DNA from: a bacterium
GTDB taxonomy: Bacteria > Planctomycetota > Planctomycetia > Kolteriales > Kolteriaceae
Direction of reading: 5' to 3'
Assembly: GCA_019753235.1 (NCBI GenBank)
Contig: JAIELF010000006.1
Location: 27,041 to 91,040 of the forward strand
DNA: 64,000 bases
Made by a program: the position numbers and the translations under genes. The notes under the pieces were generated by a model. The model did no database searches, had not been told where the DNA came from, and saw only the letters and a list, made by a program, of their open reading frames with translations. Of the stretch, positions 25,993-40,297 are shown in pieces (position 1 is the stretch's first letter; the number at the start of each line of letters is the position of its first letter).

Positions 25993-26790
25993 GTGTTCGA
26001 TTCTGGATCGCATTGGTCTGGCCGATGGGTGTTGAGTGGGTTGTTCATGTTTCTGGGCGGAGTTCAAGCAAAGGAGCCGCCTGGTCCTGATGCGTCGGTC
26101 ATGATTCAGCGAGGTGAACAGTTCCTTGTGCAGATGTTCGATCGTTCGATGGATTTGCTTCCCGAGTTTCCTGGTTCAACGACGTATTGGCTTTATCACG
26201 ATAATTACTTGGCTGCCAAAATGCTGGAGAAGGTCGATCCCATTTTGGCGGCAAAGATTCGCGCGAGAATCCAATCCTTTGGCGTGGCTACTTCGGGAAA
26301 GATTGAGATTCTTTTTGGCGAGTTGCAGGGGCCGCCGAGGTTTTGGCAATTCGATCTCTCGGTAGTGGATCAGATCGGCGACAAGGTCATCAAGACCGAA
26401 CGAGTGACCGACCGAGAATTGAAAGGTTGGGAAAAGTATGCCGACCTGTTGGCGATGCGTGTGATCGGTCAGCCTCGCGATGCCCAAGCGAACGATTCTT
26501 TCGAGAAGCTGGTATCGCTCTGGGACGGTCGGGGTTTTGCCGATCCCGCGACGAAGCTTCAAAGGATTTACGCGACTTACAAGCTTGCCCTTGCCCTCAT
26601 TGCATCACAAAAGATCGATCGACCCCTTCCGTTTCGGAAAGAACTTCTCTCTCGATTGCAGAGTCAGCAAGCGAGTTCAGGAGGTTGGATCACCGATTTT
26701 GATCCGGCCGGCAATCCGCGAGGCTTTGCCAACGTTGAAACGACGTGCATGGTTTTGCTCGCTCTTCAAGGCGTGACGATCAACGATTGA
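25993..26790 (+). CDS. secreted protein, possibly alpha/alpha-toroid (prenyltransferase/terpene-cyclase-repeat-like)
   Basis: GTG start, signal-like RWVLSGLFMFLGGVQA, helical repeat character, and a QQASSGGW motif resembling the Q..DGGW repeats of toroid proteins. The family assignment is tentative. Confidence 0.5.
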   Translation: MFDSGSHWSGRWVLSGLFMFLGGVQAKEPPGPDASVMIQRGEQFLVQMFDRSMDLLPEFPGSTTYWLYHDNYLAAKMLEKVDPILAAKIRARIQSFGVATSGKIEILFGELQGPPRFWQFDLSVVDQIGDKVIKTERVTDRELKGWEKYADLLAMRVIGQPRDAQANDSFEKLVSLWDGRGFADPATKLQRIYATYKLALALIASQKIDRPLPFRKELLSRLQSQQASSGGWITDFDPAGNPRGFANVETTCMVLLALQGVTIND

Positions 26791-26898: not shown

Positions 26899-27660
26899 TC
26901 ACGCGACGTCGTTGGCCCATTCTTTTCGGATCAGATCGAGCAAGACTTCGCGATTCTTCGGCTGATCCATGAAGAAGTGGTCGCCGGGAACGGTGTGGCA
27001 TTCGAATCCTCCCCCCGCGTGCATCGACCAGCCTTCGATTTCATTCTTCAAGACGTAGGCGTCGTCTTGTCCGGTGAAGGCGACGATGGGGCATGAAACA
27101 CCTTCGCCGGGCGAGAAAACGTATAGTCCATCGAGCTTCAAATCCGCTCGCAATGCGGGCAGCAGTAGTTGCATCAGTTCCTCATGGTCGAGAACCTCGC
27201 TCGGGAAAGCGCGTAAGCTGCGAAGGAACTCGCGAACTCTCTCAAGCGGTTGTTCGTGAAGCGTTTGATCTCTCGACACCATGTGCGGAGCGCGCCGGGC
27301 GGCCACGAAGAGCTGGTCAGGCTGCGTTCGAAACTCGCGGGCGAGTCTCTTCGTGACTTCGAACGCCACCAGCGATCCCATGCTGTGGCCATAGAAAGCG
27401 AACGGCACATCCGTGAGTGGTTCAATGGCTTCGACAATCGGCTCGACAAGATCGGCGAGCGAATCGACAGGGGATTCACTCATGCGACCGGGGCGCCCTG
27501 GAAGTTGAAGAGATTGGATCTCCACGGTTGGGGGGACAAGATCGACCCAGGGTTTGAAAATAGCCGAGGATCCGCCGGCATAGGGAAAGCAGAATAGCCG
27601 AGCCGCGGGCTCTTCCACCGTTTTGGGCGAGGTCAGCCATGCCTCGGGATGATGGGTCAT
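26899..27660 (-). CDS. type II (discrete) thioesterase
   Basis: RLFCFPYAGGSS, nucleophile elbow GHSMGS, C-terminal GDHFF. 253 aa. It begins 32 nt after the permease stop, so it is probably co-transcribed. Confidence 0.88.
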   Translation of the reverse strand: MTHHPEAWLTSPKTVEEPAARLFCFPYAGGSSAIFKPWVDLVPPTVEIQSLQLPGRPGRMSESPVDSLADLVEPIVEAIEPLTDVPFAFYGHSMGSLVAFEVTKRLAREFRTQPDQLFVAARRAPHMVSRDQTLHEQPLERVREFLRSLRAFPSEVLDHEELMQLLLPALRADLKLDGLYVFSPGEGVSCPIVAFTGQDDAYVLKNEIEGWSMHAGGGFECHTVPGDHFFMDQPKNREVLLDLIRKEWANDVA

Positions 27661-27692: not shown

Positions 27693-28808
27693 TTACCGCA
27701 GGAGTTCGGCAGGATCGACATTAAAGAGGGATCGCAGCGCGAGCAGACCGGACGCCAGCGCCACCCCTAGGACGATCGCCGCCGTCGCCGCCAGCAGTGA
27801 CATGGGTATGTCAATCTGCGTGCCGATGAGTATTCCCATCCACTGAAAAGCGACGGCCAATGGAAGCCCGATCGCCAAGCCGACCAATCCGATCACCAGC
27901 GATTGTTGCAGCACGAAGAGGTTCATTCGCCAGCCGGGCACGCCGAGAGACTTGAGGACTGCCAATTCTCGAAGCATGCTCGCGGTCGCGGAGTAGAGGG
28001 TTTGACTGGTGACGACGGCGCCGACGAGAAGGCCCAGTAGTGCAGTGAACCCGACCGCCAGGCCAGACTTGGTTTTCAGAATCCAGTACCATCGCGACTG
28101 CGCGGAGAATTCATTTTTGCTGAGGACGTCGATGTCAGGGATTTCACGAAGTGCATTCATGATGGGGGCGACTTTGTCCTCGCTGGTCGCGCGAGCGAGG
28201 ATGTAAGTTGCCTCGTAATCCTTGTAGAAGAGCATCTTCTTCGCGGTTGGGATAGAACAAAAGACGTAACAGCCAGTCATGCTTGGCATGTTGTTGAGGA
28301 AGCCGACCACGCGCACCTTGTAGCCATGAATCTCGGCCACGTCGCCGAGCTTCTCTACACCGAGTTTTTCTTTGTCGGTGCGATCGATGGCGACGGCGCC
28401 CGGTTCGGACAGAGCGACCATTAACTCCGGCGAAAGCTGGGCCAGCGGCCCCAATCCGCGATCGCTGAGGTTCTGCCCACAGAGAATCACCAGCACCGTC
28501 CCCGCACGAGGATTCCACCATCGCGTGAACTCTTGAACGTACTCATCGGTCTGAGCGACATCGGGAATCATCAGCAAGCGATTGCGAAACCGATTGCTGA
28601 TGGGTCCGCCGTTGTCAGCCGAGGGCGTGTGCTTGGCCGCGATCCAAATCTGCGCTTCTGAAACGTCGACAGGGGCGCTGACCGTCGCCACCAACCCAAC
28701 GAGGACACCTCCCTGGACCGCCATCAAGACCGCACTAAAGGCAACCGCGAGCATCCCCGCCATGTATCGGCGTCGCTCGAACCAGAGTGTCTGAATCGCG
28801 TACTGCAA
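27693..28808 (-). CDS. DevC-like (MacB/FtsX-type) ABC exporter permease
   Basis: 371 aa: N-terminal TM, about 200-aa periplasmic domain, C-terminal FtsX 3-TM bundle (LAVLKSLGVPGWRM ... LRSLFNVDPAELLR). TTG start. Confidence 0.85.
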   Translation of the reverse strand: MQYAIQTLWFERRRYMAGMLAVAFSAVLMAVQGGVLVGLVATVSAPVDVSEAQIWIAAKHTPSADNGGPISNRFRNRLLMIPDVAQTDEYVQEFTRWWNPRAGTVLVILCGQNLSDRGLGPLAQLSPELMVALSEPGAVAIDRTDKEKLGVEKLGDVAEIHGYKVRVVGFLNNMPSMTGCYVFCSIPTAKKMLFYKDYEATYILARATSEDKVAPIMNALREIPDIDVLSKNEFSAQSRWYWILKTKSGLAVGFTALLGLLVGAVVTSQTLYSATASMLRELAVLKSLGVPGWRMNLFVLQQSLVIGLVGLAIGLPLAVAFQWMGILIGTQIDIPMSLLAATAAIVLGVALASGLLALRSLFNVDPAELLR

Positions 28809-28902
28809 TTTAATTCAACCATTCCGCTAGCGTATGGTGCTCAGGGCATCACTTTTCGACGTCGGCGTCATCCATCGGGGGCGGGTAACCCTGCGGACCT
28901 GG

Positions 28903-29019
28903 TCAACGAGCCTTTCTTCGCGAGGGCCGATCTCCGACCAAACGACAGGCGAAGAAAAGGAACACCAGCATGATAGCCGTCACAAGCGAAGTCGCCAAAG
29001 AGCAGGATTCAACAGGCAT
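28903..29019 (-). CDS. candidate 38-aa transmembrane micro-protein (speculative)
   Basis: My own reading of the 262-nt gap between the MFP and permease genes gives ATG 29019 ... TGA 28905-28903, encoding MPVESCSLATSLVTAIMLVFLFFACRLVGDRPSRRKAR (one TM helix and a basic tail). It is below the ORF-track length cutoff and has no clear Shine-Dalgarno. Confidence 0.2.
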   Translation of the reverse strand: MPVESCSLATSLVTAIMLVFLFFACRLVGDRPSRRKAR

Positions 29020-29070
29020 GCTCGATGGAGCCGGCAGCGAGGCAGGCTCAACGAAGGGGAAGGATGTTTT

Positions 29071-30294
29071 CTAGGAGGACTTGGCGGGCGGACTCGTCGC
29101 GGCATGGGCGGCCGGCGGAGCCTGAAAGGTGACACGAACCCGCTGACCGATGCGAAGCATTTGCGGGTCTTTCGGAAGATCGACAATGCATTCGACCGTC
29201 GGAACATCGCTTACTTCGAAGACTTTGTTCCAAATGGTGCGACGCGGAGCAACCCAGGTAGAACAGCGACGGACTTGTCCGTCCCATTCCTTGCCATCAA
29301 AATTCTCGTTGTGAATCACCACCGAGGCACCCTCGGCAATCCGGTCTGCAAATTCCTGGTCGACTTCACAGCGAACAATGAACGGTTTATCGGGACAGAA
29401 CCAGATCGTCGGCGCCATCGTCGCGCTTAGAATCTGCCCCACACCAACTTGAATTCGAAGAACTCGGCCGTCCGAGGGAGCAGTCAGCGTGTGATTGGTA
29501 AGTTCCTCTTTCGCGATGGAAAGCTTCGCCAAAGCAGCGGACTCGGAGGCTTCAGCGGAACGAACCAGCAATTGCGGGTCGGCCGCTTCCGCCTCGGCAA
29601 GTTGTTCTTTGGAGATACGAAGCATCGCCTGCAATTCGATGAGTTGATCCTTAGCCGAGAGGAAAGTCTCCTCAGCAACACCTTGCTTGGGTCGAAGAGC
29701 TTCTAGCTTGTTGGTCTGACGCTCGGCCGACTGAAGGCGTGATTCGGCCGCCAATACCGACTGACGAAGTTGTTCGATCTTATGCTTGTGATTCTGCGCG
29801 CCCTCTTTGGAGCGAAGGACTTGAATGCCCGAATCTTTGACGGCAGCCTCGGCTTGTTCAACATGGAGCTTGGCAAGCGTCGAATCAAGGACGACGATCG
29901 CATCACCCTTCTTGACGCTGGCCCCCTCTTGCACGGGAATCAACGTCACCATGCCCGAAGCTCGCGGCGTCAGCGGAACCGTACCACCCTCTACGTCAAT
30001 CGAGCCCGTGGCAACGACGGCGTTTTCCTTCATGATGCCAGAATAGGCAACAGGCAATGAGCTCGCTCCGACACTGGCGGCCAGTGCCGGCTGCGGTCCA
30101 CCAGGAATTCCCTGGCGAAATTCGCTCATGCTTGCCGCGACGAGAATCGCCACCCCTAAAAGGGCGCTCGCCGATCCGGTGATTATCTTCCAGGTTGCCA
30201 ACCCGTTTTTCCTCATTTTGGCCCGTCGAGAGCCACGCTTCTGTTCTACTACTATGCCGCCGGCTTGCAACGCCGGGTCATTGTAGTCGGCCAT
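29071..30294 (-). CDS. HlyD/DevB-like membrane fusion protein
   Basis: 407 aa: N-terminal TM anchor, lipoyl-like half motifs (VKKGDAIVVLD), a long coiled-coil hairpin (AEAAVK ... LEALRPK ... LAEAEAA), and a beta-barrel C-terminus. Confidence 0.85.
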   Translation of the reverse strand: MADYNDPALQAGGIVVEQKRGSRRAKMRKNGLATWKIITGSASALLGVAILVAASMSEFRQGIPGGPQPALAASVGASSLPVAYSGIMKENAVVATGSIDVEGGTVPLTPRASGMVTLIPVQEGASVKKGDAIVVLDSTLAKLHVEQAEAAVKDSGIQVLRSKEGAQNHKHKIEQLRQSVLAAESRLQSAERQTNKLEALRPKQGVAEETFLSAKDQLIELQAMLRISKEQLAEAEAADPQLLVRSAEASESAALAKLSIAKEELTNHTLTAPSDGRVLRIQVGVGQILSATMAPTIWFCPDKPFIVRCEVDQEFADRIAEGASVVIHNENFDGKEWDGQVRRCSTWVAPRRTIWNKVFEVSDVPTVECIVDLPKDPQMLRIGQRVRVTFQAPPAAHAATSPPAKSS

Positions 30295-30580: not shown

Positions 30581-30904
30581 ACTTGGGGGGATGTCGAGCT
30601 TGGATGGACTTCCGATGGGCGATTCCTAGACTTGGGCATGTCATTGTCCGGGAACTAACCCGTTTTGCTGATTAAACTGTGACGCCAGCGGATGTTGGAT
30701 TCGCGGTGGTCACGGGTGGGTCTTTGGCCGAGGTTGGTCTTCTCTTAGCAGACGCCTGCAATCGAGACTCGCCCAAGGATTGACCCGACTCGACAGACGG
30801 GCTCCAAAAGCGGAGCTTTCAGCCCCGTGACTGTCGGCGGCCGAGCCCCAGGGCCGGCCTTCTCGCCCGAGAGATCAACCGAGGGATTGAGGAATTGCCC
30901 CAAT

Positions 30905-33900
30905 ATGACTCCTACCAGCCGACCTCTTGAACAGATTCCCTTCCAGAACCTCGTCGAGGTATTGCGATTCCGGGCTCAGCAGCAGCCCGAGCGGATGGCG
31001 ATCAAGTTTCTTACCGATGGGGAAGAGGCTCATACTTCTTGGACGTACGAGCAACTTCAGCGTCGCTCGATGCAGATTGCCAATCATCTTTGCCGACATG
31101 CCGAGCCTGGTGACCGGGTCTTGTTGGTCTTTCCACCAGGGCTGGACTATATCGCCGCCTTCTATGGCTGCTTGTACGCAGGGTTGATCGCGGTGCCGAC
31201 CTATGCCGCCCGATTAACTCGTTCTTCATCGAAGCTCCTGAGCGTTCTCGAAGATAGTCAGGCACGCGTCGTTCTGACGACGGCTCGGCTGATGGAAGGT
31301 CTGCCGGCCGATTTGGCCGAGGTGGTGCACGGCACCCACTGGATGGCGGTCGAAGATGTTCCAGCGTCGGCAAGTGACTCGTTCGACTGCCCCGAGATCA
31401 CTCGTGACGATGTCGCCTTTCTGCAGTACACCTCCGGTTCTACCGCAGCCCCGCGCGGCGTGATGGTGACGCATGGCAACCTGTTGCACAATCAGTCGGT
31501 GATTGCAGAGAAGTTTCAGTCCACGGCCGACTCGGTCGGTGTCATCTGGCTTCCCCCTTATCACGACATGGGCTTAATCGGTGGAATCTTGCAGCCGGTC
31601 TACAGCGGCATGCCGGTCATCTTGATGCCGCCCCTCTCTTTCATTCAGCGACCTTTCCGCTGGTTGAAAGCGATTTCCGATCACCGCGCTTCCGCCAGCG
31701 GCGGGCCTAATTTCGCGTACGACTTGTGCGTCGAACGGATATCGCCCGAGCAGCGCGCCACGCTGGATCTGAGTTCTTGGAAGGTTGCATTCAACGGGGC
31801 CGAGCCGATCCGAAGCGAGTCCCTGCATCGCTTTGCTGAGACTTTCGCCGAGTGTGGCTTTCGGCGCGAGGCGTTTTATCCCTGTTATGGCTTGGCCGAG
31901 TCGACCCTTTTGGTCACCGGTGCAGACTGCCAACAAGGCGCCATCGAAGCAACGATCGATCCGGTTCGACTCGAACAAGCCGAGGCGGTTGCCGACCATT
32001 CACCCTCCGCTCGACGATTGGTTGCCAGCGGCACCGCGGCTCGCGGCCAAAGCGTCATCATCGTCGACCGGGCGACCGGCGGTCCCGCACCCGAGGGTCG
32101 CGTCGGCGAGATTTACATCAGTGGTCCAAGCGTCGCCAAAGGGTACTGGAATCGGCCCGAAGAGACTCGCGAAACGTTTGAAGCTCGTGTGGTCGGCCAA
32201 GAGGATTTGTTTCTTCGAACCGGGGATCTTGGTTTCTTTGCGGAAGGACAGCTCTACGTCACGGGTCGGCAAAAAGATCTGATCATCGTTCGTGGATCGA
32301 ATCATTATCCGCAGGATATCGAAGCGACGGCGACGCAGAGCCACGACTCGCTCAAGGGGGGACGCGGAGCGGCTTTCTCCGTCGATGGAACGGATCAAGA
32401 GCGGCTTGTTCTCGTCCATGAAGTCACATCGCGCGATGCATCCCAGTTCGACGAGATCCTCACCGCGATCACCCGAGCGATCGCCCTCGAACATGAATTA
32501 CAGGTCTCCGAGATTGTCCTCGTTGGTCAGCACCGAGTCCCGAAAACATCGAGCGGAAAAATTCAGCGAAGGGCTTGTCGCGAACAATTCTTAAAGGGTG
32601 AACTCTCGGGCGTCCTCGCTTCTTGGAAAACAGGACAAGCACCAACGTCTCTGCGTGACAGTCGACTGTCACTGCCGGCGGGCGAGAAGTCGGACGTGCT
32701 TGGTGCGGACTTTTACCGATTCGTTCTCGATCCTGATTACTTGGTCGATAGCGCCGCCCTCTGGGAGGGAGCCGACCAGTTGTCCGGGGCCCAGACCAAC
32801 AAGTTCGTTCGCTTGGCCGAGCTATCGGATCTACGTCCCGATACGGACGTTCTCGATGTCGGGTGCGGTTGGGGCGGATTCCTCAAGTATGCCGTCGATT
32901 CCCTTGGCTCGCGGTCGGTCGTCGGATTGACCCTCTCACCCGAAGAAGCCGCTCACGCCGGCAGCCTGATGGGCCCGCGCGGGAAGGTTCTTGTTTCCTC
33001 GTGGAGCGATTTCTCGGCCGATCAATCTTTTGATTCGGTTGTCTGCGCGGGGGCGATCGAGCATTTTGTGACCCTTGCCGATCGAGCTCGCGGCGAAGCG
33101 GTCAAACGATACCGATCGTTCTTCAAACGAGCACGACGCTGGATGCGCGGCACGGGTCGGCTCGCGATCGAAACGCTGATCAGTGTTCGCCGGGCCGACT
33201 CGCCCCAGGCGTACCAGGATGTTTCGACGCTGGCCAAAATGTTCCCGCATTCGTCGATTCCATCGATTGATGATCTGCGGGACGCATGCGAGGGTCTATT
33301 TGATCTGGTCGAGTCGGATTCGATTCGACGGGACTATCAACGGACGCTGGTCGCTTGGTTGGGAAGGCTTCACGAGCATCGATCCGAGATCCTCGAAAAG
33401 TTCGGCATGGAGACATTCGAAAAGTTCGACCGATACTTCGAAGCGAGCTTGCGACAAGCGAAAGAGGGTTATGTCGATCTGATCATGCTTTCTCTCCAGC
33501 CGTTGAATGTCAGCCCCGAGATGCTCGAGGAGGATGCCGACTCCCGCGTTACGCGCTCGCCTCTATCGGCCCGCTCCGCCACTCGATCGATGGTCGAGAT
33601 TCAAGAGTGGATCACTCAATCGCTGGCCCGGAAGCTTAGAGTCGAAACAAGTGATATCGACGCTCGCCAGCCTTTCTCGACTTTCGGTCTCGATTCGCTG
33701 GCGATGGTCAGCCTGGTCGGTGAACTGGAGACTTGGCTTGAACAGTCTCTCTCGCCGACGCTGGCGTGGGACTATCCTTCAATTGAGACGTTGTCGGCAT
33801 TCCTGGCCGGCGAGACGACCGGCGATCGGCAAAGCGAAGAGCCGGCCGCCTTGGCTGAGCCAATCGCGATCATCGGGATGGGATGTCGTTTCCCTGGAGC

Positions 33901-36900
33901 CCATTCGCTCGACGAGTACTGGAATCTCATGATGGATCGCGTCGATGCGATTCAAGAGATCCCCAAGGATCGATGGAACATCGACGAGTACTTTGACAAA
34001 GACCCTGATTCGCCTGGAAAAATGGTGACGCGATGGGGAGGATTCGTCGATCGAATCGATCAGTTTGATCCCCAGTTCTTCGGCATCTCGCCGCGCGAAG
34101 CGGCTCGGATGGATCCGCAGCAGCGAATGCTTTTGGAGACAACGTGGGAGGCTCTGGAACATGCCGGCCTCCCTTCCGATCGAGTTGCCGGGTCGAGAAC
34201 AGGAGTCTTCGTCGGCATCGGTGGCACCGACTACTCTCAGCTTTATCGACGATTTGACAACCCGACGGAGTACCTTGATGCCTACTGCGGGACGGGCAAC
34301 GCGCTGAGCATTGCGGCCAATCGGCTCTCGTACATTTTCGATCTGCGCGGACCAAGCCTGTCGGTCGATACAGCTTGTTCGTCGGCGCTTGTGGCGATTC
34401 ACTATGCCGCCCAGAGTCTTCGCCAACGCGATTGCGACATGGCCATTGCCGGCGGCGTCAATGCGATTCTGACCCCGGAAGTGACCATCGCCTTTTCCAA
34501 AGCGCGGATGCTTTCGCCCGATGGTCGATGCAAAACTTTCGATGCGGACGCCAATGGTTACGTTCGCGGCGAAGGTTGCGGCGTCGTGATTTTTAAACGA
34601 TTGGCCGATGCGGTTCGCGATGGGGATCCTGTCTTAGCCATCCTTCGGTCGACTGCAGTTAATCAGGACGGCAAGACGACCGGAATCACGGCCCCCAACG
34701 GCCCCGCTCAGAAGGAATGTGTCCGGACTGCTCTGGAACAGGCCGGCGTCAAGGCCAACGAACTGACCTACATCGAGGCACATGGCACGGGAACGCCGCT
34801 GGGCGATCCGATCGAAGTCAATGCTTTGCGTGATGTCGTTGCGGGTCGACCCGAATCGGAACCGGTCTGCTATCTCGGCTCGATCAAGGCGAACATCGGT
34901 CACCTGGAGACCGCTTCGGGTGTGGCCGGCTTGATTCGCGTGGTCCTGATGATGAAGCATGGCATCATTCCGCCTCAAAGAAACTTTCAGAAGCTGAACC
35001 CGCACATCAAGCTAGAGGGTTCGCCGCTGCGAATCACGACCGAGCCGGTTCGTTGGACTGGTTTGGCCGATCATCGTCGATTCGCGGGCGTGAGCGGTTT
35101 TGGATTCGGCGGAACCAATGCACATCTGATTCTCGAAGCTCCTCGGTTCTCGGCTGACCTCGAAGAGAATGAGAACGAGATTCCCGAGCGACCTCAGCAT
35201 GTCGTCGTTTGGTCGGCCCAGTCGGAAAATGCTCTTCGCGACTATGCAGCGAACTTTCTGGCCCTCCTAGATGCTCAGCCGGAAGCGACCGCCGCCGACT
35301 GGGCTTGGTCGACTGCTCGACTCCGGACGCCGTTCGATTTTCGCGCGACCGCGATCGTCGAATCGATCAACGACTTACGGGACCAATGGACGAGCTTCGT
35401 CGAGACGGGTCGGTCGCCGAATGTGGTGACCGGGCCGGTTCGCGTTCGATCGAAGCCCAAGATGGCGATGCTCTTTACGGGTCAGGGATCTCAATATGCC
35501 GGCATGGCCAAAGATCTCTTTGAGACTGAGCCGGTCTTTCGGTCGTATCTAGAAGAATCGGCTCGACTGCTGGCGGGTCGACTTCCTCGTCCACTTCTCG
35601 ATGTTCTTTTTGATGCCGACAGCAACGATGTGAATGAGACCACGTACACCCAGCCGGCGCTGTTTGCGGTCGAGTATAGTCTCGCCAAGTTATGGCAAAG
35701 CTGGGGAATCGAGCCGACAAGCTTGCTGGGACACAGTGTTGGAGAGATTGCCGCCGCCACCTTTGCCGAGGTGATGTCGCTGGAGGATGGCTTAGCGCTG
35801 ATTGCCAAGCGGGCAGAGTTGATGGGCAAGCTTCCGACGGGCGGCAAGATGGCCGTCATCTTTGCCAGCGAGGCCGATGTCCTCCGGTCGATCGCTGCCT
35901 TGAATGAAGGCGAACCGAGAAGGGGCTCTGCCAGGGTCGATATCGCTGCCATCAATGGACCCGAGAACACGGTGGTGTCGGGGCCCGAACAGGCCGTTGA
36001 TGAATTGCTCGCGCGGTTCGCCGAGGGAGATGTTCGGACGCAAGAACTGGTTGTTTCGCACGCGTTCCATTCATCGTTGCTCGAGCCGATGCTCGATGAG
36101 TTTGAACGATTTGCCCAAACGATCTCCTATCGTCCGGCGCGGATTCCGCTGGTTTCGAATGTCACCGGAGCGTTTTTCGCGGAGGGAGAAGCCCCTGATG
36201 CTCGGTATTGGCGGCGTCATGCTCGCGGCGCGGTTCGATTTGCGGATGGGATGTTGGCCCTTTCGAAATCGCGCGTCGATGTCTATCTAGAAGTCGGTCC
36301 GCATCCGAGCTTGGTGGCGATGGGACGTCGCTGTGTCAAGCCGGGCAAGCAACTCTGGTGTGGCTCTCTTCGGCGGGGTTCGGTCGATTCAACCGTGATG
36401 GCCCAGACCATCTCGAGTCTCTTTATCCATGGCACGCCGATCGATGTTGCCCGGCGAGATGCCGGTCGCCCGCGCCGCCGGCTCGAGCTTCCGACCTATC
36501 CATTCCAGCGACAACGATTTTGGATGGAAGAGGATGCCGACAAGAAGTCGACTCGTTGGCTGGCAACCAGCGATGCGACGGCGCATCCTCTCTTGGGTTC
36601 GCCTGTTCCTCTCGCGATGGCGACCCATGTCTTTGCCGGGGAACTCAGCACGCGCCGGGTTCCGTCGCTGGCGCATCACGTGGTGCAAGGGTCGATTGTG
36701 TTACCGGGCGCTGCCTATCTCGAAACCGCATTGGCCGCAGCGCACGCTGTCTTCGGGCCAGGCGTTCATCGTGTCGAGAATATCAATTTTCAGCAGGCTC
36801 TTTTTCTTCCGGAAGGCCGGCGTCAGGCCATTCAGGTTGTTGTTTCGCCGGAAGTCGCTGGTACCAGTACGTTCCAGTTCCTGAGTCTGCCCGCGGATGC

Positions 36901-39900
36901 ACCGGCGGGGACTTCATGGACCACGCACTCGGCCGGTGTTCTCGCGCGGGTAACCAGTGCCGACCCGGTGCAGGCGGTCCGCGAGATCCCGACCCATGTT
37001 CGCGATGAGGTCGACATCTATCACGATCGAGCCGACCTCTACACCAAACTTCGTGATCGCGGCATGGAGTACGGCGAGCTCTTTCAAGTCTCGCAGGAAA
37101 TCTGGAAAAAAGGGCAGGAGACACTTTCGCGGCTGGCACTCCCCGAGGCTTTGAAGGATGAGTTGACGAAGTTCCAACTCCACCCGGCGATCATGGATGC
37201 ATGCATTCAGATGCTGGGAGCAACCATCCCAGAAGAACTCGTCGCCAGCGGTACCGGCGAAACTTACCTTCCCACGGGTGTCGCGCAGCTTCGGCTTTTC
37301 TCCTCGCCGCAGCCCCAGATGTGGGTCCACGCGAAGCTTCACACCGATTTTGCCAAAGAAGGCCTTCGGCTCGCGCAGGGAGATATCTATCTTCTCGACG
37401 ATGCCGGTCGAGTCATCGCGGAGTTCCTAGGCGTCACCCTGACAAGAATCGGCGCTCGCCACAGTGGTGCCGAGGTCCACACCTCGGAGCAGTGGGTTCA
37501 TTCGGTCGTTTGGAATGAGAGCTCGCTGGCGGGTGATCAAGAATTATCGCGCGGGCCGTGGGTTCTGCTCGGCGATAATCAAGGGGTGACGATGTCGATG
37601 GCGTCGCTCCTGTCGCAGCGTGGAATCAAGCCGATCGTCGCGGTCCCAGGCCGTGAGTTTGCCCGAACCAACTCAGGCTACCGACTTCGCTGGAATAACC
37701 CGGCCGACTACCGCAAGCTGGTCGAAGCGGTCGGACCATCTCGGTTTGTCCATGCCTGGAGCTTGCGATCCGACCGAGGCGCTACCAAGCAAGAGGAGGT
37801 CCGTTCGTCGACGCTCAGTCTGCTGTATTTAGTGCAAGCAATCGATCAACCGACCAGCGAGCTCTTTGTGGTCACGCGCGGTTCGCAGTCTGTTCTTATC
37901 GAGGATGACACGGACCCGGCCGCGACGGCAGTCTGGGGTTTGGCCCGTGTTGTTGCCAATGAACGGCTCGACTTGCCGACGAGACTCATCGATCTCGATC
38001 CGGCCGCCGACGAAGGAGTCAATGCATCATCGCTGCTCGCGGAACTGGGCAGTAACGCCGGCGAGCGAGAGGTTTCTTATCGCGGCGAACAGCGCCGAGT
38101 TCCTCGACTTCGACGTGAAGGTTCTTTGATTCGTCAGGATGCGAAGGAAGAGAACCGTTCGCATACCACGCTCCCCGCGTCGGGCGCGTATCGGCTCGAA
38201 GTCGGTGCCACGCCGACGTTGGATCGACTGGCCTATCGATCGTTTGCGCGCTCGGCACCGGGGGAAGGGGAGATCGAGATCGAAGTTGCCGCCACGGGTT
38301 TGAACTTCTCCGACGTTCTGAAAGCCATGGGGCTTTATCCCGGCCTGAAGCCCGGCGCGGTGCCGATCGGCATCGAATGTTCTGGTCGAGTCGTGGCGAA
38401 GAGCCCCACGGTGAAGGAGTTCGAGATTGGCGACGAAGTGGTCGGCATCGCTCCCTTTAGCTTCGCCAGTCACACGACCACAAGCGCGATGGGTGTTGTT
38501 CGAAAGCCTGCGTCCATCTCGCATGAGGAAGCCGCCGCGGTGCCAATCGCGTACTTGACGGCTCATTATGCCCTTCGTTGGCTGGCTCGGGTGGAACCAG
38601 GCGAAAGAGTTCTCATTCACGCAGCCGCCGGCGGCGTCGGATTGGCGGCAATTCAGATTTGCCAAGCCATCGGTGCCGAAGTCTTCGCCACCGCGGGGAG
38701 CGACGAGAAGCGTGATTATCTCCGGTCGCTTGGGGTCAAGCATATCTTCAACTCGCGTTCGCTGGATTTTGCCGACCAGATTCGCGAGGTGACGCAGGGC
38801 AAGGGGGTCGATGTTGTTCTGAACTCTTTGCCGGGCGAGGCCATCACGAAGAGCATCGAATCGCTGGGGGCCTACGGTCGTTTCCTAGAGATCGGCAAGA
38901 CCGACATCTACCAGAATAAAGCGATCGGGCTCTATCCATTCCAAAATAACTTGTCGTACTTTGCCATCGATCTCGACAAGATGATGCGAGAAAAGCCGAC
39001 GCAAGTACGAAAGATGTTCCTCGAGGTCGTCGATCTCTTCGACCGCGGAATGTATCGGCCATTGCCCATGACGACGTTTGCAGCCGAGCAAACATCCTCG
39101 GCTTTCCGCTACATGGCACAGCGAAAAAATATCGGCAAGGTCGTTGTCTCCTACGCTCGGTCGACTTCCTCGCCCGAAGCTGCCGGCATGATACGTGCCG
39201 ACGGTGCCTACTGGATTACCGGGGGATTGGGGGCGCTGGGTCTAGAGATTGCCCAATGGCTCAGCCAACTCGGCGCTCGGCAACTCGTCCTCTTTGGACG
39301 GTCGGCACCCAGTCCATCGGCCGAGGAAGTGCTCGCTCGGCTTCGGCGTGATGGTGTCCAATCGACGATCGTGATGGCTGATGTTGGGGACCGCGAGTCG
39401 CTGCAGCAATCGGTCGCGAAGCTCCCGTCGCTGTTGGCTCGGCCGATCGGCGTATTCCATGTCGCTGGTGTGCTGGATGATGGTGTCCTCGCGCAGCAGA
39501 ACCGCGATCGATTCGAGAAGGTCCTTCGGTCTAAAGTCGACGGAGGCTGGAATCTTCACGAGATTACGCTCGATGCTCCGCTCGATCACTTTGTTCTCTT
39601 CTCTTCGGTCGCGAGCCTGCTCGGTTCGCCGGGCCAGGCGAACTACGCTGCTGGCAACGCCTTCCTGGATGGATTGGCCCAGCATCGTCGATCGATGGGT
39701 TTGCCAGCCTTGTCCATCAACTGGGGCCCCTGGGCCGAGGTGGGCATGGCTGCTCGATTAGGCGAGGACAAACTGACCGCTCGCGGCATCGCGCCGATGA
39801 AACCAGCTCAAGCGATCGAAGTCCTTGAGAAACTTCTCGAAACGTTTGCGACGCAGGTGACGGTGGCCGATATCGATTGGCCCACGATGCTGGCTCTCTA

Positions 39901-40297
39901 TCCCGACGGTCCGCCGGCCATGTTTTCGGAATTGGCGGGACAAGCCAGCAAGAAAGCCGAGGGAGATGACGAGCTTCGTCAACGACTTCTCGATACCCCT
40001 CACGAGGATCGTCTCGAAATGCTGCAGAGCTATTTCGTCGATCAGATCGCGCGGGTGATGGAACTCGATGCTGCCCGCATCAATCCCGAGCAGCCGATGA
40101 ACACGCTCGGTTTGGATTCATTGATGGCGATCGAACTGAAGAATGGAATCGAGTCTAGCCTCGGGGTGAATATCCCCATGGCCAAGTTCCTGGAAGGGCC
40201 CAGTGCTCACCAGTTGTCGAGGATCGTGCTTGAACTGATGACGGCGAGAATGCCCGCGCCGGGTTCCGATTCCGCCGGCGGCGGGAACGAAAAGTAA
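30905..40297 (+). CDS. type I polyketide synthase, single fully reducing module with FAAL loading: FAAL-CMAS(MT)-ACP-KS-AT-DH-ER-KR-ACP
   Basis: 3130 aa from ATG 30905 (the ORF opens at GTG 30827). Domains by motif, approximate nt coordinates: FAAL 30941-32606 (FLQYTSGSTAAPRGVMVTHGNL, YHDMGLI, GGPNFAYDL, TSSGKIQR). CMAS-family MTase 32702-33502 (VLDVGCGWGG, VVGLTLSPEE, GAIEHF, DYQRTLVAWL). ACP1 33590-33814 (FGLDSLA, Ser codon 33695-33697). KS 33857-35144 (DTACSS with Cys codon 34376-34378, EAHGTGT, NIGHLE). AT 35462-36523 (GHSVGE with Ser codon 35735-35737, HAFH 36059-36070). DH 36581-37453 (HPLLGSPVP, DACIQ). Linker/pseudo-KR about 37500-38170. ER 38187-39156 (HAAAGGVG). KR 39197-39760 (TGGLGALG, LDD, YAAGN). 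ACP2 40004-40240 (LGLDSLM, Ser codon 40118-40120). There is no TE/R/C domain after ACP2. Confidence 0.97.
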   Translation: MTPTSRPLEQIPFQNLVEVLRFRAQQQPERMAIKFLTDGEEAHTSWTYEQLQRRSMQIANHLCRHAEPGDRVLLVFPPGLDYIAAFYGCLYAGLIAVPTYAARLTRSSSKLLSVLEDSQARVVLTTARLMEGLPADLAEVVHGTHWMAVEDVPASASDSFDCPEITRDDVAFLQYTSGSTAAPRGVMVTHGNLLHNQSVIAEKFQSTADSVGVIWLPPYHDMGLIGGILQPVYSGMPVILMPPLSFIQRPFRWLKAISDHRASASGGPNFAYDLCVERISPEQRATLDLSSWKVAFNGAEPIRSESLHRFAETFAECGFRREAFYPCYGLAESTLLVTGADCQQGAIEATIDPVRLEQAEAVADHSPSARRLVASGTAARGQSVIIVDRATGGPAPEGRVGEIYISGPSVAKGYWNRPEETRETFEARVVGQEDLFLRTGDLGFFAEGQLYVTGRQKDLIIVRGSNHYPQDIEATATQSHDSLKGGRGAAFSVDGTDQERLVLVHEVTSRDASQFDEILTAITRAIALEHELQVSEIVLVGQHRVPKTSSGKIQRRACREQFLKGELSGVLASWKTGQAPTSLRDSRLSLPAGEKSDVLGADFYRFVLDPDYLVDSAALWEGADQLSGAQTNKFVRLAELSDLRPDTDVLDVGCGWGGFLKYAVDSLGSRSVVGLTLSPEEAAHAGSLMGPRGKVLVSSWSDFSADQSFDSVVCAGAIEHFVTLADRARGEAVKRYRSFFKRARRWMRGTGRLAIETLISVRRADSPQAYQDVSTLAKMFPHSSIPSIDDLRDACEGLFDLVESDSIRRDYQRTLVAWLGRLHEHRSEILEKFGMETFEKFDRYFEASLRQAKEGYVDLIMLSLQPLNVSPEMLEEDADSRVTRSPLSARSATRSMVEIQEWITQSLARKLRVETSDIDARQPFSTFGLDSLAMVSLVGELETWLEQSLSPTLAWDYPSIETLSAFLAGETTGDRQSEEPAALAEPIAIIGMGCRFPGAHSLDEYWNLMMDRVDAIQEIPKDRWNIDEYFDKDPDSPGKMVTRWGGFVDRIDQFDPQFFGISPREAARMDPQQRMLLETTWEALEHAGLPSDRVAGSRTGVFVGIGGTDYSQLYRRFDNPTEYLDAYCGTGNALSIAANRLSYIFDLRGPSLSVDTACSSALVAIHYAAQSLRQRDCDMAIAGGVNAILTPEVTIAFSKARMLSPDGRCKTFDADANGYVRGEGCGVVIFKRLADAVRDGDPVLAILRSTAVNQDGKTTGITAPNGPAQKECVRTALEQAGVKANELTYIEAHGTGTPLGDPIEVNALRDVVAGRPESEPVCYLGSIKANIGHLETASGVAGLIRVVLMMKHGIIPPQRNFQKLNPHIKLEGSPLRITTEPVRWTGLADHRRFAGVSGFGFGGTNAHLILEAPRFSADLEENENEIPERPQHVVVWSAQSENALRDYAANFLALLDAQPEATAADWAWSTARLRTPFDFRATAIVESINDLRDQWTSFVETGRSPNVVTGPVRVRSKPKMAMLFTGQGSQYAGMAKDLFETEPVFRSYLEESARLLAGRLPRPLLDVLFDADSNDVNETTYTQPALFAVEYSLAKLWQSWGIEPTSLLGHSVGEIAAATFAEVMSLEDGLALIAKRAELMGKLPTGGKMAVIFASEADVLRSIAALNEGEPRRGSARVDIAAINGPENTVVSGPEQAVDELLARFAEGDVRTQELVVSHAFHSSLLEPMLDEFERFAQTISYRPARIPLVSNVTGAFFAEGEAPDARYWRRHARGAVRFADGMLALSKSRVDVYLEVGPHPSLVAMGRRCVKPGKQLWCGSLRRGSVDSTVMAQTISSLFIHGTPIDVARRDAGRPRRRLELPTYPFQRQRFWMEEDADKKSTRWLATSDATAHPLLGSPVPLAMATHVFAGELSTRRVPSLAHHVVQGSIVLPGAAYLETALAAAHAVFGPGVHRVENINFQQALFLPEGRRQAIQVVVSPEVAGTSTFQFLSLPADAPAGTSWTTHSAGVLARVTSADPVQAVREIPTHVRDEVDIYHDRADLYTKLRDRGMEYGELFQVSQEIWKKGQETLSRLALPEALKDELTKFQLHPAIMDACIQMLGATIPEELVASGTGETYLPTGVAQLRLFSSPQPQMWVHAKLHTDFAKEGLRLAQGDIYLLDDAGRVIAEFLGVTLTRIGARHSGAEVHTSEQWVHSVVWNESSLAGDQELSRGPWVLLGDNQGVTMSMASLLSQRGIKPIVAVPGREFARTNSGYRLRWNNPADYRKLVEAVGPSRFVHAWSLRSDRGATKQEEVRSSTLSLLYLVQAIDQPTSELFVVTRGSQSVLIEDDTDPAATAVWGLARVVANERLDLPTRLIDLDPAADEGVNASSLLAELGSNAGEREVSYRGEQRRVPRLRREGSLIRQDAKEENRSHTTLPASGAYRLEVGATPTLDRLAYRSFARSAPGEGEIEIEVAATGLNFSDVLKAMGLYPGLKPGAVPIGIECSGRVVAKSPTVKEFEIGDEVVGIAPFSFASHTTTSAMGVVRKPASISHEEAAAVPIAYLTAHYALRWLARVEPGERVLIHAAAGGVGLAAIQICQAIGAEVFATAGSDEKRDYLRSLGVKHIFNSRSLDFADQIREVTQGKGVDVVLNSLPGEAITKSIESLGAYGRFLEIGKTDIYQNKAIGLYPFQNNLSYFAIDLDKMMREKPTQVRKMFLEVVDLFDRGMYRPLPMTTFAAEQTSSAFRYMAQRKNIGKVVVSYARSTSSPEAAGMIRADGAYWITGGLGALGLEIAQWLSQLGARQLVLFGRSAPSPSAEEVLARLRRDGVQSTIVMADVGDRESLQQSVAKLPSLLARPIGVFHVAGVLDDGVLAQQNRDRFEKVLRSKVDGGWNLHEITLDAPLDHFVLFSSVASLLGSPGQANYAAGNAFLDGLAQHRRSMGLPALSINWGPWAEVGMAARLGEDKLTARGIAPMKPAQAIEVLEKLLETFATQVTVADIDWPTMLALYPDGPPAMFSELAGQASKKAEGDDELRQRLLDTPHEDRLEMLQSYFVDQIARVMELDAARINPEQPMNTLGLDSLMAIELKNGIESSLGVNIPMAKFLEGPSAHQLSRIVLELMTARMPAPGSDSAGGGNEK
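32702..33502 (+). other. CMAS-family (cyclopropane-fatty-acyl / mycolic acid synthase-like) SAM methyltransferase domain embedded in the PKS
   Basis: DVLDVGCGWGGFLKY (SAM motif I as in CFA synthases), VVGLTLSPEE, FDSVVCAGAIEHF, GRLAIETLI, MFPHSSIPSIDDL, RRDYQRTLVAWLGRL, FDRYFEASL. The order and spacing follow E. coli Cfa and mycobacterial CmaA-type enzymes (PF02353, from memory). Confidence 0.8.

What the first reader, a model, noticed from the sequence alone, without database searches (positions are those of the whole stretch)
32702..33502. CMAS-family (cyclopropane/mycolate-type) methyltransferase domain between the FAAL loading domain and the first ACP
Seen in sequence: about 267 aa between the FAAL C-terminus (…SSGKIQRRACREQFLKGEL) and ACP1 carry the CFA-synthase-type motif series VLDVGCGWGG / VVGLTLSPEE / GAIEHF / PHSSIPS / DYQRTLVAWL / FDRYFEASL. 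Established knowledge: PKS C-methyltransferase domains normally sit after AT/DH inside the reducing loop and belong to a different MT clade. CMAS enzymes act on cis double bonds of long acyl chains, and the mycobacterial members are thought to act on carrier-protein-bound meromycolates. Inference: the domain may modify (cyclopropanate, methyl-branch or methylenate) an unsaturated fatty-acyl starter while it is tethered to ACP1, before one fully reducing C2 extension. That would be an unusual in-cis starter-unit tailoring logic.
Basis: partly seen in the sequence, partly recalled or inferred. Interest (0 to 1): 0.75.

Follow-up and report, generated by a model that had tools for sequence, protein, structure and literature searches.

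The report
Lipid methyltransferase fused into PKS loader
A single giant polyketide synthase of a planctomycete-like bacterium carries, between its fatty-acid-activating domain and its first carrier domain, an intact relative of the enzymes that put cyclopropane rings or methyl branches on fatty-acid double bonds. This suggests the fatty-acid starter is methylated while tethered to the enzyme, a rare fused version of a logic first shown with separate proteins in 2026.

Summary
Window 32699-33484 (aa 625-886 of ORF 30827-40297) matches Pfam CMAS PF02353 (E 3e-41 in the whole protein, 4e-43 alone; 142-148 bits against a cut-off of 27) and far outscores generic MT models.

The predicted fold (pLDDT 91) matches PcaA, MmaA2 and CmaA1 at TM 0.80-0.85. 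The domain is a clean ~290-aa insertion in the FAAL-ACP linker of an otherwise standard FAAL-ACP-KS-AT-DH-ER-KR-ACP module, and all PKS motifs are intact.

It is not a canonical cyclopropane synthase. The SAM motif and two bicarbonate ligands (Glu745, Tyr837) are kept. The His ligand is Glu782 (Gln in orthologs), and Tyr-Ser-Cys is Asp-Ser-Ala. Purifying selection (dN/dS ~0.11; linkers diverge freely) argues against a dead spacer.

The fusion is rare. I found four full loci, counting the window, plus one fragment. The one named relative is a Pirellulales MAG.

The domain nests in a large uncharacterised "Gln" clade of free-standing ~290-aa enzymes. Of six neighbourhoods examined, five hold desaturases, four a stand-alone ACP and one a FAAL.

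FshF (Angew 2026) is an in-trans precedent: a CMAS-type MT acting on a FAAL-loaded, ACP-tethered olefin.

Verdict: a new in-cis variant of a newly known kind. The product chemistry is unresolved.

The parts
30827..40297 (+). Single-module, fully reducing type I PKS gene of 3156 aa as an ORF. The probable true start is ATG 30905. Domain order is FAAL-CMAS-ACP1-KS-AT-DH-ER-KR-ACP2, with no TE or R domain.
   Evidence: ORF list and translation; Pfam domains; orthologs align from aa 27.
30971..32608 (+). Fatty acyl-AMP ligase (FAAL) loading domain, aa 49-594.
   Evidence: PF00501 plus PF23024. The closest solved structures are an entry deposited as 'Polyketide synthase' (7R7E-G, E 1e-172), a chain deposited as 'Saframycin Mx1 synthetase B' (3KXW), FadD32/23/28 and a chain deposited as 'Fatty Acyl-Adenylate Ligase' (3PBK). 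The A3 motif YTSGST and A10 motif SSGKI are present.
32699..33484 (+). CMAS-superfamily SAM-dependent methyltransferase domain, aa 625-886. This is the finding.
   Evidence: PF02353 at 142-148 bits. AF2 model pLDDT 91.3, with Foldseek top hits PcaA, MmaA2, CmaA1 and UmaA at TM 0.80-0.85. dN/dS ~0.11 against L128.
32852..32878 (+). SAM-binding motif I, LDVGCGWGG.
   Evidence: Motif search. Invariant in four fused orthologs and in PDB relatives.
32747..32755 (+). Asp641-Ser642-Ala643, which replaces the Tyr33-Ser34-Cys35 element of canonical CMAS/CFAS enzymes.
   Evidence: HMMER alignments to MmaA2, PcaA, CmaA1 and EcCfa. MAFFT table. YL[VA]DS[AG] is conserved in the fused orthologs.
33059..33064 (+). 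Glu745-His746 of GAIEHF. Glu745 corresponds to bicarbonate ligand Glu140 of CmaA1 and Glu239 of E. coli CFAS. Retained.
   Evidence: Ligand identity from PMC11387697.
33170..33172 (+). Glu782 at the position of bicarbonate ligand His167 (CmaA1) and His266 (E. coli CFAS). It is Glu in the window and L001, and Gln in L128, L129, P0313 and nearly all of the surrounding clade.
33335..33337 (+). Tyr837, corresponding to bicarbonate ligand Tyr232 (CmaA1) and Tyr317 (E. coli CFAS). Retained.
33605..33805 (+). ACP1 (aa 927-993) with GLDSL phosphopantetheine site. It is the presumed tether of the starter during methylation.
   Evidence: PF00550; DSL motif at aa 954-958.
33857..40240 (+). Extension module KS-AT-DH-ER-KR-ACP2 with all catalytic motifs intact. 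The AT carries HAFH, the malonyl-type signature.
   Evidence: Pfam; motif check.
26899..27660 (-). Free-standing thioesterase (PF00975). It is a candidate release enzyme for the TE-less PKS and is syntenic in L128 and L001.
   Evidence: synteny.
27693..30294 (-). FtsX/MacB-type permease (27693-28808) and HlyD-type adaptor (29071-30294), transcribed divergently from the PKS. Both are weakly DevC/DevB-like, and the permease is syntenic in L128 and L001. They are a candidate product exporter.
   Evidence: Pfam. NCBIfam devC 75.9 bits and DevB 51.9 bits, both below cut-off. Synteny; in L128 only the FtsX permease carries a Pfam call.

Best explanation
The domain is a catalytically competent, non-canonical CMAS-superfamily methyltransferase. 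It has been inserted into the FAAL-ACP linker of a one-module, fully reducing PKS.

Proposed mechanism. The FAAL adenylates a free long-chain cis-unsaturated fatty acid and loads it on ACP1 (inferred). The adjacent MT domain transfers the SAM methyl group onto the isolated double bond of the ACP1-tethered chain (inferred). The resulting carbocation is then resolved to a cyclopropane or to a methylene, vinyl or methyl-branched olefin. Which product forms cannot be called, because the canonical His/Cys/Tyr33 set is replaced.

KS-AT(malonyl)-DH-ER-KR then add one fully reduced C2 unit on ACP2 (inferred from intact motifs). The neighbouring free-standing thioesterase releases the modified fatty acid, and the adjacent FtsX/HlyD-type transporter may export it as an envelope lipid (speculative).

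Shown here: domain identity, fold, insertion point, conservation, rarity and clade membership. Inferred: activity, substrate, timing and product.
For: - Family and fold: PF02353 at 142-148 bits. The AF2 model has pLDDT 91 and TM 0.80-0.85 to the mycolic-acid MTs.
- Insertion point: against four cyanobacterial FAAL-ACP-KS-AT PKSs, the window aligns at aa 30-600 and from about aa 891-925 on. Roughly 290 extra residues sit where P0192 and P0305 have 2-6.
- Catalytic residues: the SAM motif, Glu745/His746 and Tyr837 are invariant in four orthologs that are 41-73% identical.
- Selection: CMAS dN is 0.22 and dN/dS ~0.11, similar to the FAAL, while the two flanking linkers have dN 0.56-0.76.
- Phylogeny: the fused domains are monophyletic inside a clade of free-standing ~290-aa enzymes.
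- Neighbourhoods of six free-standing relatives examined: five hold desaturases, four a stand-alone ACP, and one a FAAL plus P450.
- No lipid-binding domain: the match to the Cfa model starts at position 113 of 383. [quoted passage not shown]
- Biochemical precedent: the CMAS/CFAS-family MT FshF methylates FAAL(FshA)-loaded, ACP(FshE)-tethered cis-hexadecenoyl. It gives vinyl and cyclopropane products (PMC13548996).
- The rest of the module is intact, and the TE and transporter are syntenic in L128 and L001.
Against: - There are no experimental data for this protein.
- One of the three side-chain bicarbonate ligands is replaced (His to Glu or Gln), and the Tyr33/Cys35 element is lost. The chemistry may therefore differ from olefin methylation.
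- No desaturase is encoded anywhere in the 64-kb window. This differs from most free-standing relatives, so the olefin would have to come from the general fatty-acid pool.
- In three relatives the PKS is broken by frameshifts. These are probably assembly errors, but pseudogenisation there cannot be excluded.
- dS is saturated, so the dN/dS values are rough.
Confidence: 0.6

Rival explanations
1. The domain is an active methyltransferase with a different nucleophile or different timing. It could be an O-methyltransferase on a hydroxy, keto-enol or carboxyl group, as MmaA3 is within the CMAS family. It could also act as a substitute C-MT on beta-keto or enoyl intermediates carried by ACP2 rather than on the ACP1-bound starter.
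For: The canonical olefin-cyclopropanation set is incomplete (His to Glu/Gln; Tyr33 and Cys35 lost). The CMAS fold also supports N-methylation, since plant N-methyltransferases appear among the sequence and fold hits. From my own knowledge, it also supports O-methylation (MmaA3). No desaturase lies in the window. An independent PKS fusion, P0102, places a CMAS domain after the module's ACP and before the TE, so such domains can serve module-end carrier proteins.
Against: The insertion lies exactly between the FAAL and ACP1. The nearest free-standing relatives are linked to desaturases in five of six neighbourhoods examined. A fully reducing loop removes beta-oxygen functions. PKS cMT-type models score far lower.
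Confidence: 0.17
2. The domain is an active lipid methyltransferase that works in trans on non-tethered lipids, such as membrane phospholipids or free fatty acids. The fusion would then only ensure co-expression or localisation.
For: The classical CFAS enzymes act on phospholipid-bound chains (PMC11387697). At least one clade member, P0359 of Methylotenera, has no adjacent ACP or desaturase.
Against: The domain lacks the CFAS N-terminal lipid-binding domain. Its position in a linker of about 2-35 residues between the loader and its carrier is hard to explain without a functional link. The fusion is conserved across orthologs 41-73% identical, and a fifth fragment (P0313) keeps the CMAS-ACP junction.
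Confidence: 0.08
3. The domain is a catalytically dead structural spacer or scaffold derived from a methyltransferase.
For: One bicarbonate ligand and the Tyr-Ser-Cys element are replaced. Inactive MT-like domains are known in PKSs (my own knowledge).
Against: The SAM motif I, Glu-His and Tyr are invariant in four orthologs. dN/dS is ~0.11 while the true linkers diverge freely. The same Gln/Glu substitution characterises a whole large clade of free-standing enzymes, which would not persist if it were inactivating. The model is a confident full fold.
Confidence: 0.07

Closest known systems
FshA (FAAL) / FshE (ACP) / FshF (CMAS/CFAS-family MT) of fischerazole biosynthesis, Fischerella sp. PCC 9431 (PMC13548996, 2026)
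   Same: The three functions are the same: a FAAL, a carrier protein and a CMAS-family methyltransferase feeding a PKS. FshF was shown in vitro to methylate a FAAL-loaded, ACP-tethered cis-hexadecenoyl chain. The paper places FshF apart from characterised CMAS/CFAS enzymes, among many uncharacterised homologs, and the window's domain sits in a comparable position.
   Different: In the fsh cluster the three are separate proteins in a cluster with a desaturase, halogenases and an NRPS. Here they are fused in one polypeptide, followed by one fully reducing module, with no desaturase, halogenase or NRPS nearby. Sequence relatedness to FshF was not tested. The product (vinyl, cyclopropane or other) is unknown here.
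Mycobacterial mycolic-acid methyltransferases CmaA1, CmaA2, PcaA, MmaA2, Hma and UmaA
   Same: They share the fold (TM 0.80-0.85) and are the best PDB sequence matches (E 1e-23 to 1e-21, 27-29% identity). Both are single catalytic domains without the CFAS N-terminal lipid-binding domain. SAM motif I, Glu140 and Tyr232 are shared.
   Different: His167 is Glu782 here, and Tyr33-Ser-Cys35 is Asp-Ser-Ala. The domain forms a separate clade and falls below the NCBIfam mycolic_MTase cut-off (106 against 390). It is fused into a PKS rather than free-standing.
E. coli / Pseudomonas cyclopropane fatty acyl phospholipid synthase (CFAS)
   Same: Same superfamily. Glu239 and Tyr317 equivalents are kept.
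   Different: [quoted passage not shown] It scores 123 bits against a cut-off of 400 for PRK11705. The presumed substrate is a carrier-protein thioester rather than a membrane phospholipid.
FAAL-ACP-KS-AT... loading architectures of cyanobacterial PKSs (e.g. P0192 Calothrix, P0305 Fortiea; FAAL review PMC11837247)
   Same: They are colinear at 46-51% identity on both sides of the insertion. The FAAL-initiated logic is the same.
   Different: Those proteins have a short FAAL-ACP linker (2-6 residues in P0192 and P0305, up to about 35 in P0225) where the window has a ~290-aa MT domain. The review lists stand-alone, didomain and multidomain FAALs and mentions no FAAL-MT-ACP arrangement.
JamABC and polyyne-type cassettes (FAAL + ACP + membrane desaturase acting on the tethered chain)
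   Same: The general principle is the same: remote functionalisation of a fatty acyl chain while it is held on a dedicated ACP loaded by a FAAL. Free-standing relatives of the window's MT sit in such cassettes.
   Different: Those systems desaturate; here the tailoring function is a methyltransferase and it is fused. The comparison rests partly on my own knowledge of JamABC and on the polyyne papers listed.

Membership tests
CMAS/CFAS superfamily (Pfam PF02353) | HMM match above the Pfam gathering score over most of the profile | tested here: met
   141.8-148 bits against a cut-off of 27, covering profile positions 16-271 of 273.
CMAS/CFAS superfamily (Pfam PF02353) | Class I MT SAM-binding motif (V/L)LD(I/V)GCGWG and a CmaA-like fold | tested here: met
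   LDVGCGWGG at aa 676-684. AF2 model pLDDT 91.3. Foldseek top 26 hits are all CMAS/CFAS-family structures at TM 0.77-0.84.
Canonical bicarbonate-dependent cyclopropane synthases (CFAS, CmaA1/2, PcaA) | Bicarbonate side-chain ligands Glu239/His266/Tyr317 (E. coli numbering) all present | tested here: not met
   The Glu (E745) and Tyr (Y837) are present. The His is Glu782, and Gln in orthologs. Ligand set from PMC11387697.
Canonical bicarbonate-dependent cyclopropane synthases (CFAS, CmaA1/2, PcaA) | Tyr33-Ser34-Cys35 (CmaA1 numbering) N-terminal active-site element | tested here: not met
   Replaced by Asp641-Ser642-Ala643, and by YL[VA]DS[AG] across the fused orthologs.
Canonical bicarbonate-dependent cyclopropane synthases (CFAS, CmaA1/2, PcaA) | NCBIfam equivalog score (PRK11705 Cfa; mycolic_MTase) | tested here: not met
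   123.1 against 400, and 106 against 390.
Canonical bicarbonate-dependent cyclopropane synthases (CFAS, CmaA1/2, PcaA) | Formation of a cyclopropane ring from a cis double bond and SAM | not testable with these tools
   This needs an enzyme assay with GC-MS or NMR of the product.
FshF-like carrier-protein-dependent CMAS-type methyltransferases | Genetic coupling to a FAAL and an ACP that carries the substrate | tested here: met
   Covalent fusion as FAAL-MT-ACP1, conserved in L001, L128 and L129. P0313 keeps the CMAS-ACP junction.
FshF-like carrier-protein-dependent CMAS-type methyltransferases | Sequence or phylogenetic grouping with FshF | not tested
   The FshF sequence and accession are not in the held text, and no supplements are held. 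I can only show that the domain lies outside the characterised CFAS and CmaA clades.
FshF-like carrier-protein-dependent CMAS-type methyltransferases | Methyl transfer to an ACP-tethered cis-olefinic acyl chain | not testable with these tools
   This needs an in vitro Ppant-ejection MS assay.
Canonical PKS C-methyltransferase domains | Position inside the reducing loop (after AT/DH, before ER/KR), with PKS cMT-type models as best match | tested here: not met
   The domain lies before ACP1 and upstream of the KS. Methyltransf_12 scores 33-34 bits against 142-148 for CMAS.
FAAL-initiated type I PKS loading module | A FAAL-type adenylation domain followed by an ACP with a DSL serine and a KS | tested here: met
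   PF00501 plus PF23024. The closest PDB matches include chains named as long-chain-fatty-acid--AMP ligases (FadD32/23/28) and a 'Fatty Acyl-Adenylate Ligase'. GLDSL at aa 954 and KS Cys-His-His are present.
Olefin synthase (Ols) type PKS | C-terminal sulfotransferase and thioesterase after KR-ACP | tested here: not met
   The PKS ends at ACP2 with no ST or TE domain, and DH and ER are present.

The most novel reading that the evidence does not exclude
The FAAL-MT-ACP tridomain is a self-contained 'activate, tether, methylate' unit. Its Gln/Glu-type CMAS domain does not make a cyclopropane. Instead it resolves the carbocation differently, giving a methylene, vinyl or methyl-branched olefin, possibly with Glu782 replacing or repositioning the bicarbonate base. 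The product would be a previously undescribed C1-branched long-chain fatty acid of the planctomycete cell envelope, exported by the adjacent DevBC-like transporter. The wider Gln clade would then be a large family of carrier-protein-dependent alkene methyltransferases with product outcomes beyond cyclopropanation.
Probability: 0.3. Interest if true: 0.72.

Novelty: new variant of a known kind. Interest (0 to 1): 0.55.

Why it matters
First, the substrate form used by CMAS-type enzymes has long been hard to pin down. CFAS needs membranes, and the mycolic MTs are thought to use AcpM-bound meromycolates. A natural covalent FAAL-MT-ACP fusion is strong genetic evidence for carrier-protein-tethered substrates. 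It also offers a soluble, self-loading system for studying the carbocation chemistry.

Second, the domain belongs to a large uncharacterised clade lacking the His ligand: 60 representatives at E<=1e-30 and about 800 at E<=1e-10. It is therefore a handle on what determines cyclopropane versus methylene, vinyl or methyl outcomes.

Third, a loading module that installs a mid-chain C1 modification on a fatty-acid starter would be a useful part for PKS engineering.

Fourth, it points to an unknown modified lipid in Pirellulales-type planctomycetes.

The finding is not a new principle, because FshF (2026) established the in-trans logic.

Tried and rejected
- Close orthologs via genome and metagenome scans with the CMAS domain: only relatives at or below about 33% identity across the domain, none fused. 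The window's own genome is not in those collections.
- Exhaustive representative search: no hit above 39% identity. The only megasynthase in the top 150 is P0102, which has a different architecture.
- The fused relatives surfaced only with the three-domain query and a four-sequence profile.
- Literature searches for FAAL + cyclopropane + MT domain, and for CMAS + loading module: nothing relevant.
- FshF sequence or accession: not available, so I could not test direct relatedness.
- Cluster-member names for the top relatives: only generic 'cyclopropane-fatty-acyl-phospholipid synthase' labels.
- Desaturase search across the whole window: none found.
- Two neighbouring ORFs without Pfam hits, 25993-26790 and 42413-43180: no family match, and neither looks like a desaturase.
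- Ordinary PKS cMT: considered and rejected on model scores and position.
- Dead spacer: considered and rejected on selection and motif conservation.
- Ols-type olefin synthase: considered and rejected because there is no ST-TE and the module is fully reducing.
Full report

Yes. The stretch lies inside one long ORF, 30827-40297 on the + strand, 3156 aa.

Pfam places these domains along the protein:

| Domain | Residues |
|---|---|
| AMP-binding + DIP2-like C-terminal domain | 49-594 |
| CMAS PF02353 | 625-886 |
| PP-binding | 927-993 |
| KS | 1011-1387 |
| AT | 1549-1852 |
| DH | 1920-2213 |
| ER | 2479-2774 |
| KR | 2793-2971 |
| second ACP | 3063-3138 |

CMAS scores E 3.3e-41 and 141.8 bits in the whole protein. 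Scanned alone it scores E 4.4e-43 and 148 bits. The cut-off is 27, and profile positions 16-271 of 273 are covered.

Orthologs align only from residue 27. The real start is therefore probably ATG 30905.

**2. What kind of CMAS domain is it?**

The best solved relatives by sequence are MmaA2, PcaA, CmaA2, CmaA1 and E. coli CFAS, at E 1e-23 to 1e-21. An AlphaFold2 model built on 35 sequences is confident (pLDDT 91.3, pTM 0.90). Its top 26 Foldseek matches are all CMAS/CFAS-family structures. TM is 0.80-0.85 to the single-domain mycobacterial enzymes.

The match to the E. coli-type Cfa model starts at position 113 of 383. [quoted passage not shown] A recent CFAS study links that absence to substrates not embedded in the membrane (PMC11387697).

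It is a superfamily member but not an equivalog of any named enzyme. It scores 123 against 400 bits for Cfa, and 106 against 390 for the mycolic MTases.

**3. Catalytic residues.**

The CFAS bicarbonate ion is held by the side chains of Glu239, His266 and Tyr317 in E. coli numbering (PMC11387697). In CmaA1 numbering these are Glu140, His167 and Tyr232. HMMER and MAFFT alignments give the following for the window:

| Canonical element | Window residue | Status |
|---|---|---|
| SAM motif I | LDVGCGWGG | intact |
| Glu140 / His141 | Glu745-His746 (GAIEHF) | kept |
| Tyr232 | Tyr837 | kept |
| His167 | Glu782 | replaced |
| Tyr33-Ser34-Cys35 | Asp641-Ser642-Ala643 | replaced |

The domain therefore does not meet the definition of a canonical bicarbonate-dependent cyclopropane synthase.

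These are not random losses. Nearly all of the closest ~290-aa free-standing relatives carry Gln at the His position, while keeping YSC and GAFEHF. Among the fused orthologs the position is Glu (window, L001) or Gln (L128, L129, P0313).

**4. Is it a degenerate spacer?**

No. Against the 72%-identical ortholog L128:

| Region | aa identity | dN | dN/dS |
|---|---|---|---|
| CMAS domain | 73% | 0.22 | ~0.11 |
| FAAL | 75% | 0.18 | 0.07 |
| two flanking linkers | 43-51% | 0.56-0.76 | not reliable |

dS is saturated, so the ratios are rough, but the contrast with the linkers is clear. Eighty-six columns, including all the motifs above, are invariant across four orthologs down to 41% identity.

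**5. How the domain sits in the synthase.**

Four cyanobacterial FAAL-ACP-KS-AT PKSs were compared (P0192, P0246, P0305, P0225). They align colinearly with window residues about 30-600, and again from about 891-925 onward. The gap between the two segments is only 2-6 residues in P0192 and P0305, and up to about 35 in P0225.

The CMAS domain is therefore a clean ~290-aa insertion into the FAAL-ACP linker of a standard chassis.

The FAAL assignment rests on two results:
- the PF23024 hit;
- the nearest structures: an entry deposited as 'Polyketide synthase' (7R7E-G, E 1e-172), 3KXW, FadD32/23/28 and a 'Fatty Acyl-Adenylate Ligase' (3PBK).

The extension module looks fully functional:
- KS Cys-His-His;
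- AT GHSVG with HAFH, the malonyl signature;
- DH HxxxGxxxxP;
- the ER and KR nucleotide motifs;
- KR YAAGN;
- both ACPs with GLDSL.

There is no TE or reductase domain.

**6. How common is the architecture?**

It is rare.
- An exhaustive HMMER pass over 1.84 billion representatives gave no hit above 39% identity. Among the best 150 hits there is only one megasynthase, P0102. Its order is KS-AT-DH-ER-KR-ACP-CMAS-TE-SnoaL, an independent fusion at the other end of a module.
- Genome and metagenome scans found no fused relative.
- A three-domain query found two proteins combining AMP-binding with PF02353 among the best 120. P0188 is 72% identical. P0212 is 49% identical and is named as a Pirellulales MAG.
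- With L001 (found via P0002) there are three relatives colinear with the PKS. L128 and L129 match to the second ACP; the L001 match stops in the ER. All three are broken by frameshifts typical of error-prone assemblies.
- A profile of the four fused domains found a fifth instance, a CMAS-ACP fragment (P0313).

A 2025 review of FAALs lists stand-alone, FAAL-ACP and FAAL-PKS/NRPS forms, and mentions no FAAL-MT-ACP form.

**7. What do the relatives say about substrate?**

In an NJ tree the four fused domains are monophyletic. They sit inside the large Gln clade of free-standing enzymes, apart from the His-bearing mycobacterial CmaA and CFAS groups.

I read six neighbourhoods of close free-standing members:

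| Protein | Neighbourhood |
|---|---|
| P0001 | di-iron desaturase-like, MT, 4HBT thioesterase, ACP, membrane desaturase, hydrolase |
| P0004 | desaturase, ACP, MT, P450, FAAL |
| P0007 | MT, acyl-ACP-desaturase family |
| P0316 | AurF-like di-iron, MT, ACP, hydrolase, desaturase |
| P0323 | desaturase-like, MT, 4HBT, ACP, hydrolase, FA hydroxylase, desaturase |
| P0359 | no such operon |

Five of six are next to desaturases and four of six next to a dedicated ACP. This is good guilt-by-association evidence that the clade methylates double bonds of carrier-protein-tethered acyl chains.

**8. Literature precedent.**

A July 2026 paper (PMC13548996) shows that FshF is a free-standing CMAS/CFAS-family MT. 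It methylates cis-8/9-hexadecenoyl loaded by the FAAL FshA onto the ACP FshE. Two deuterons are retained from d3-SAM.

[quoted passage not shown] The authors place FshF apart from characterised CMAS/CFAS enzymes, near many uncharacterised homologs from several phyla.

This is the in-trans counterpart of what the window encodes in cis. I could not obtain the FshF sequence, so direct relatedness is untested.

**9. Surroundings.**

Divergently upstream lie a HlyD-type adaptor (29071-30294), an FtsX/MacB-type permease (27693-28808) and a free-standing PF00975 thioesterase (26899-27660). The thioesterase and the permease are syntenic in L128 and L001. The adaptor and permease are weakly DevB/DevC-like.

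Further out are housekeeping genes: pyrB, pyrC, an aminotransferase, purH, folD, coaX and mnmA.

Downstream are a glutathione peroxidase, a GT2 and a bona fide DevBCA-family exporter. No desaturase is present anywhere in the 64 kb.

L129 has a different neighbourhood, with an A-T-reductase gene after the PKS.

**10. Most likely mechanism (confidence about 0.6).**

1. The FAAL adenylates a pre-existing cis-unsaturated long-chain fatty acid and loads ACP1.
2. The inserted MT methylates the tethered olefin with SAM.
3. The carbocation is resolved to a cyclopropane or an olefinic C1 branch. Which one cannot be called, given the Glu/Gln-for-His and Asp-Ser-Ala-for-Tyr-Ser-Cys replacements.
4. One malonyl-derived C2 unit is added and fully reduced.
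5. The trans thioesterase releases the acid, which may be exported.

Shown here are identity, fold, insertion point, selection, rarity and clade context. Activity, substrate, timing and product are inferred.

Rivals:
- a different nucleophile or timing (0.17);
- action in trans on free or membrane lipids (0.08);
- a dead scaffold (0.07).

**11. Novelty and score.**

The principle of a CMAS-type MT acting on a FAAL-loaded, ACP-tethered olefin is now known. The fused FAAL-MT-ACP loading module is undescribed, rare and lineage-restricted, and it belongs to an uncharacterised Gln/Glu clade. I rate it a new variant of a known kind, with interest 0.55.

Noticed in passing
window 43352-47989 (-): A complete DevBCA-family ABC exporter, the family that exports heterocyst glycolipids in cyanobacteria (that role is from my own knowledge). 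DevA scores 325 bits against a cut-off of 296 and carries a C-terminal cyclic-nucleotide-binding domain. There are two DevC permeases (338 and 267 bits; cut-off 290) and a DevB (204 against 129). It lies 3 kb downstream of the PKS, after a glutathione peroxidase, a GT2 (PgfS-like) and an unassigned 255-aa ORF.
   Followed up: partly
L046 2034-6436; L131 5153-8975; L132 5100-11546; L048 6610-12156: A recurring, apparently uncharacterised cassette surrounds the free-standing Gln-type CMAS relatives. It comprises a di-iron desaturase-like or AurF-like protein, the CMAS MT, a 4HBT thioesterase, a stand-alone ACP, an alpha/beta hydrolase and a membrane FA desaturase. One version adds a P450 and a FAAL. 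It looks like a JamABC/polyyne-style 'tailor on ACP' system with a methyltransferase.
   Followed up: partly
P0102 (2988 aa, NCBI metagenome contig of 20 kb): An independent PKS fusion of a Gln-type CMAS domain, with the order KS-AT-DH-ER-KR-ACP-CMAS-TE-SnoaL. Here the MT sits after the module's ACP rather than in the loading region.
   Followed up: partly
P0038, P0040, P0041, P0042, P0055 (580-645 aa); P0077 (669 aa): These are the best-scoring representatives overall. P0038 and P0055 are confirmed tandem CMAS-CMAS proteins by Pfam, and the other three match the query in two stretches. P0077 fuses a CMAS domain to a SABATH-type carboxyl methyltransferase (PF03492). Their functions are unknown.
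   Followed up: no
window 30827-30907: The ORF as listed starts at GTG 30827, but all orthologs align only from residue 27. ATG 30905 is the more likely start, which shifts residue numbering by 26.
   Followed up: partly
L001 7454-15715; L128 10001-19358; L129 10001-19850: In all three related loci the PKS is split into several ORFs by frameshifts, whereas the window has one intact 9.5-kb ORF. This is probably long-read assembly error, but pseudogenisation was not excluded. In L001 similarity stops in the ER, at about aa 2685.
   Followed up: partly
window 25993-26790 (+) and L128 5264-6052: A 262-265-aa protein with an N-terminal hydrophobic, signal-like segment and no Pfam or NCBIfam match. 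An unassigned ORF of matching size sits at the same position (between pyrB and the thioesterase gene) in L128; I did not compare the two sequences. Its relation to the PKS is unknown.
   Followed up: partly
window 42413-43180 (-): A 255-aa ORF with no family match, next to the PgfS-like GT2 (41223-42260). It is not conserved next to the PKS in L128, where a B12-binding radical SAM gene lies downstream instead.
   Followed up: no
L129 21211-22229+: In the Pirellulales MAG the orthologous PKS is followed by an AMP-binding, ACP and NAD_binding_4 reductase gene (carboxylic-acid-reductase-like). This hints that in that lineage the product may be reduced to an aldehyde or alcohol rather than released by a thioesterase.
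   Followed up: no
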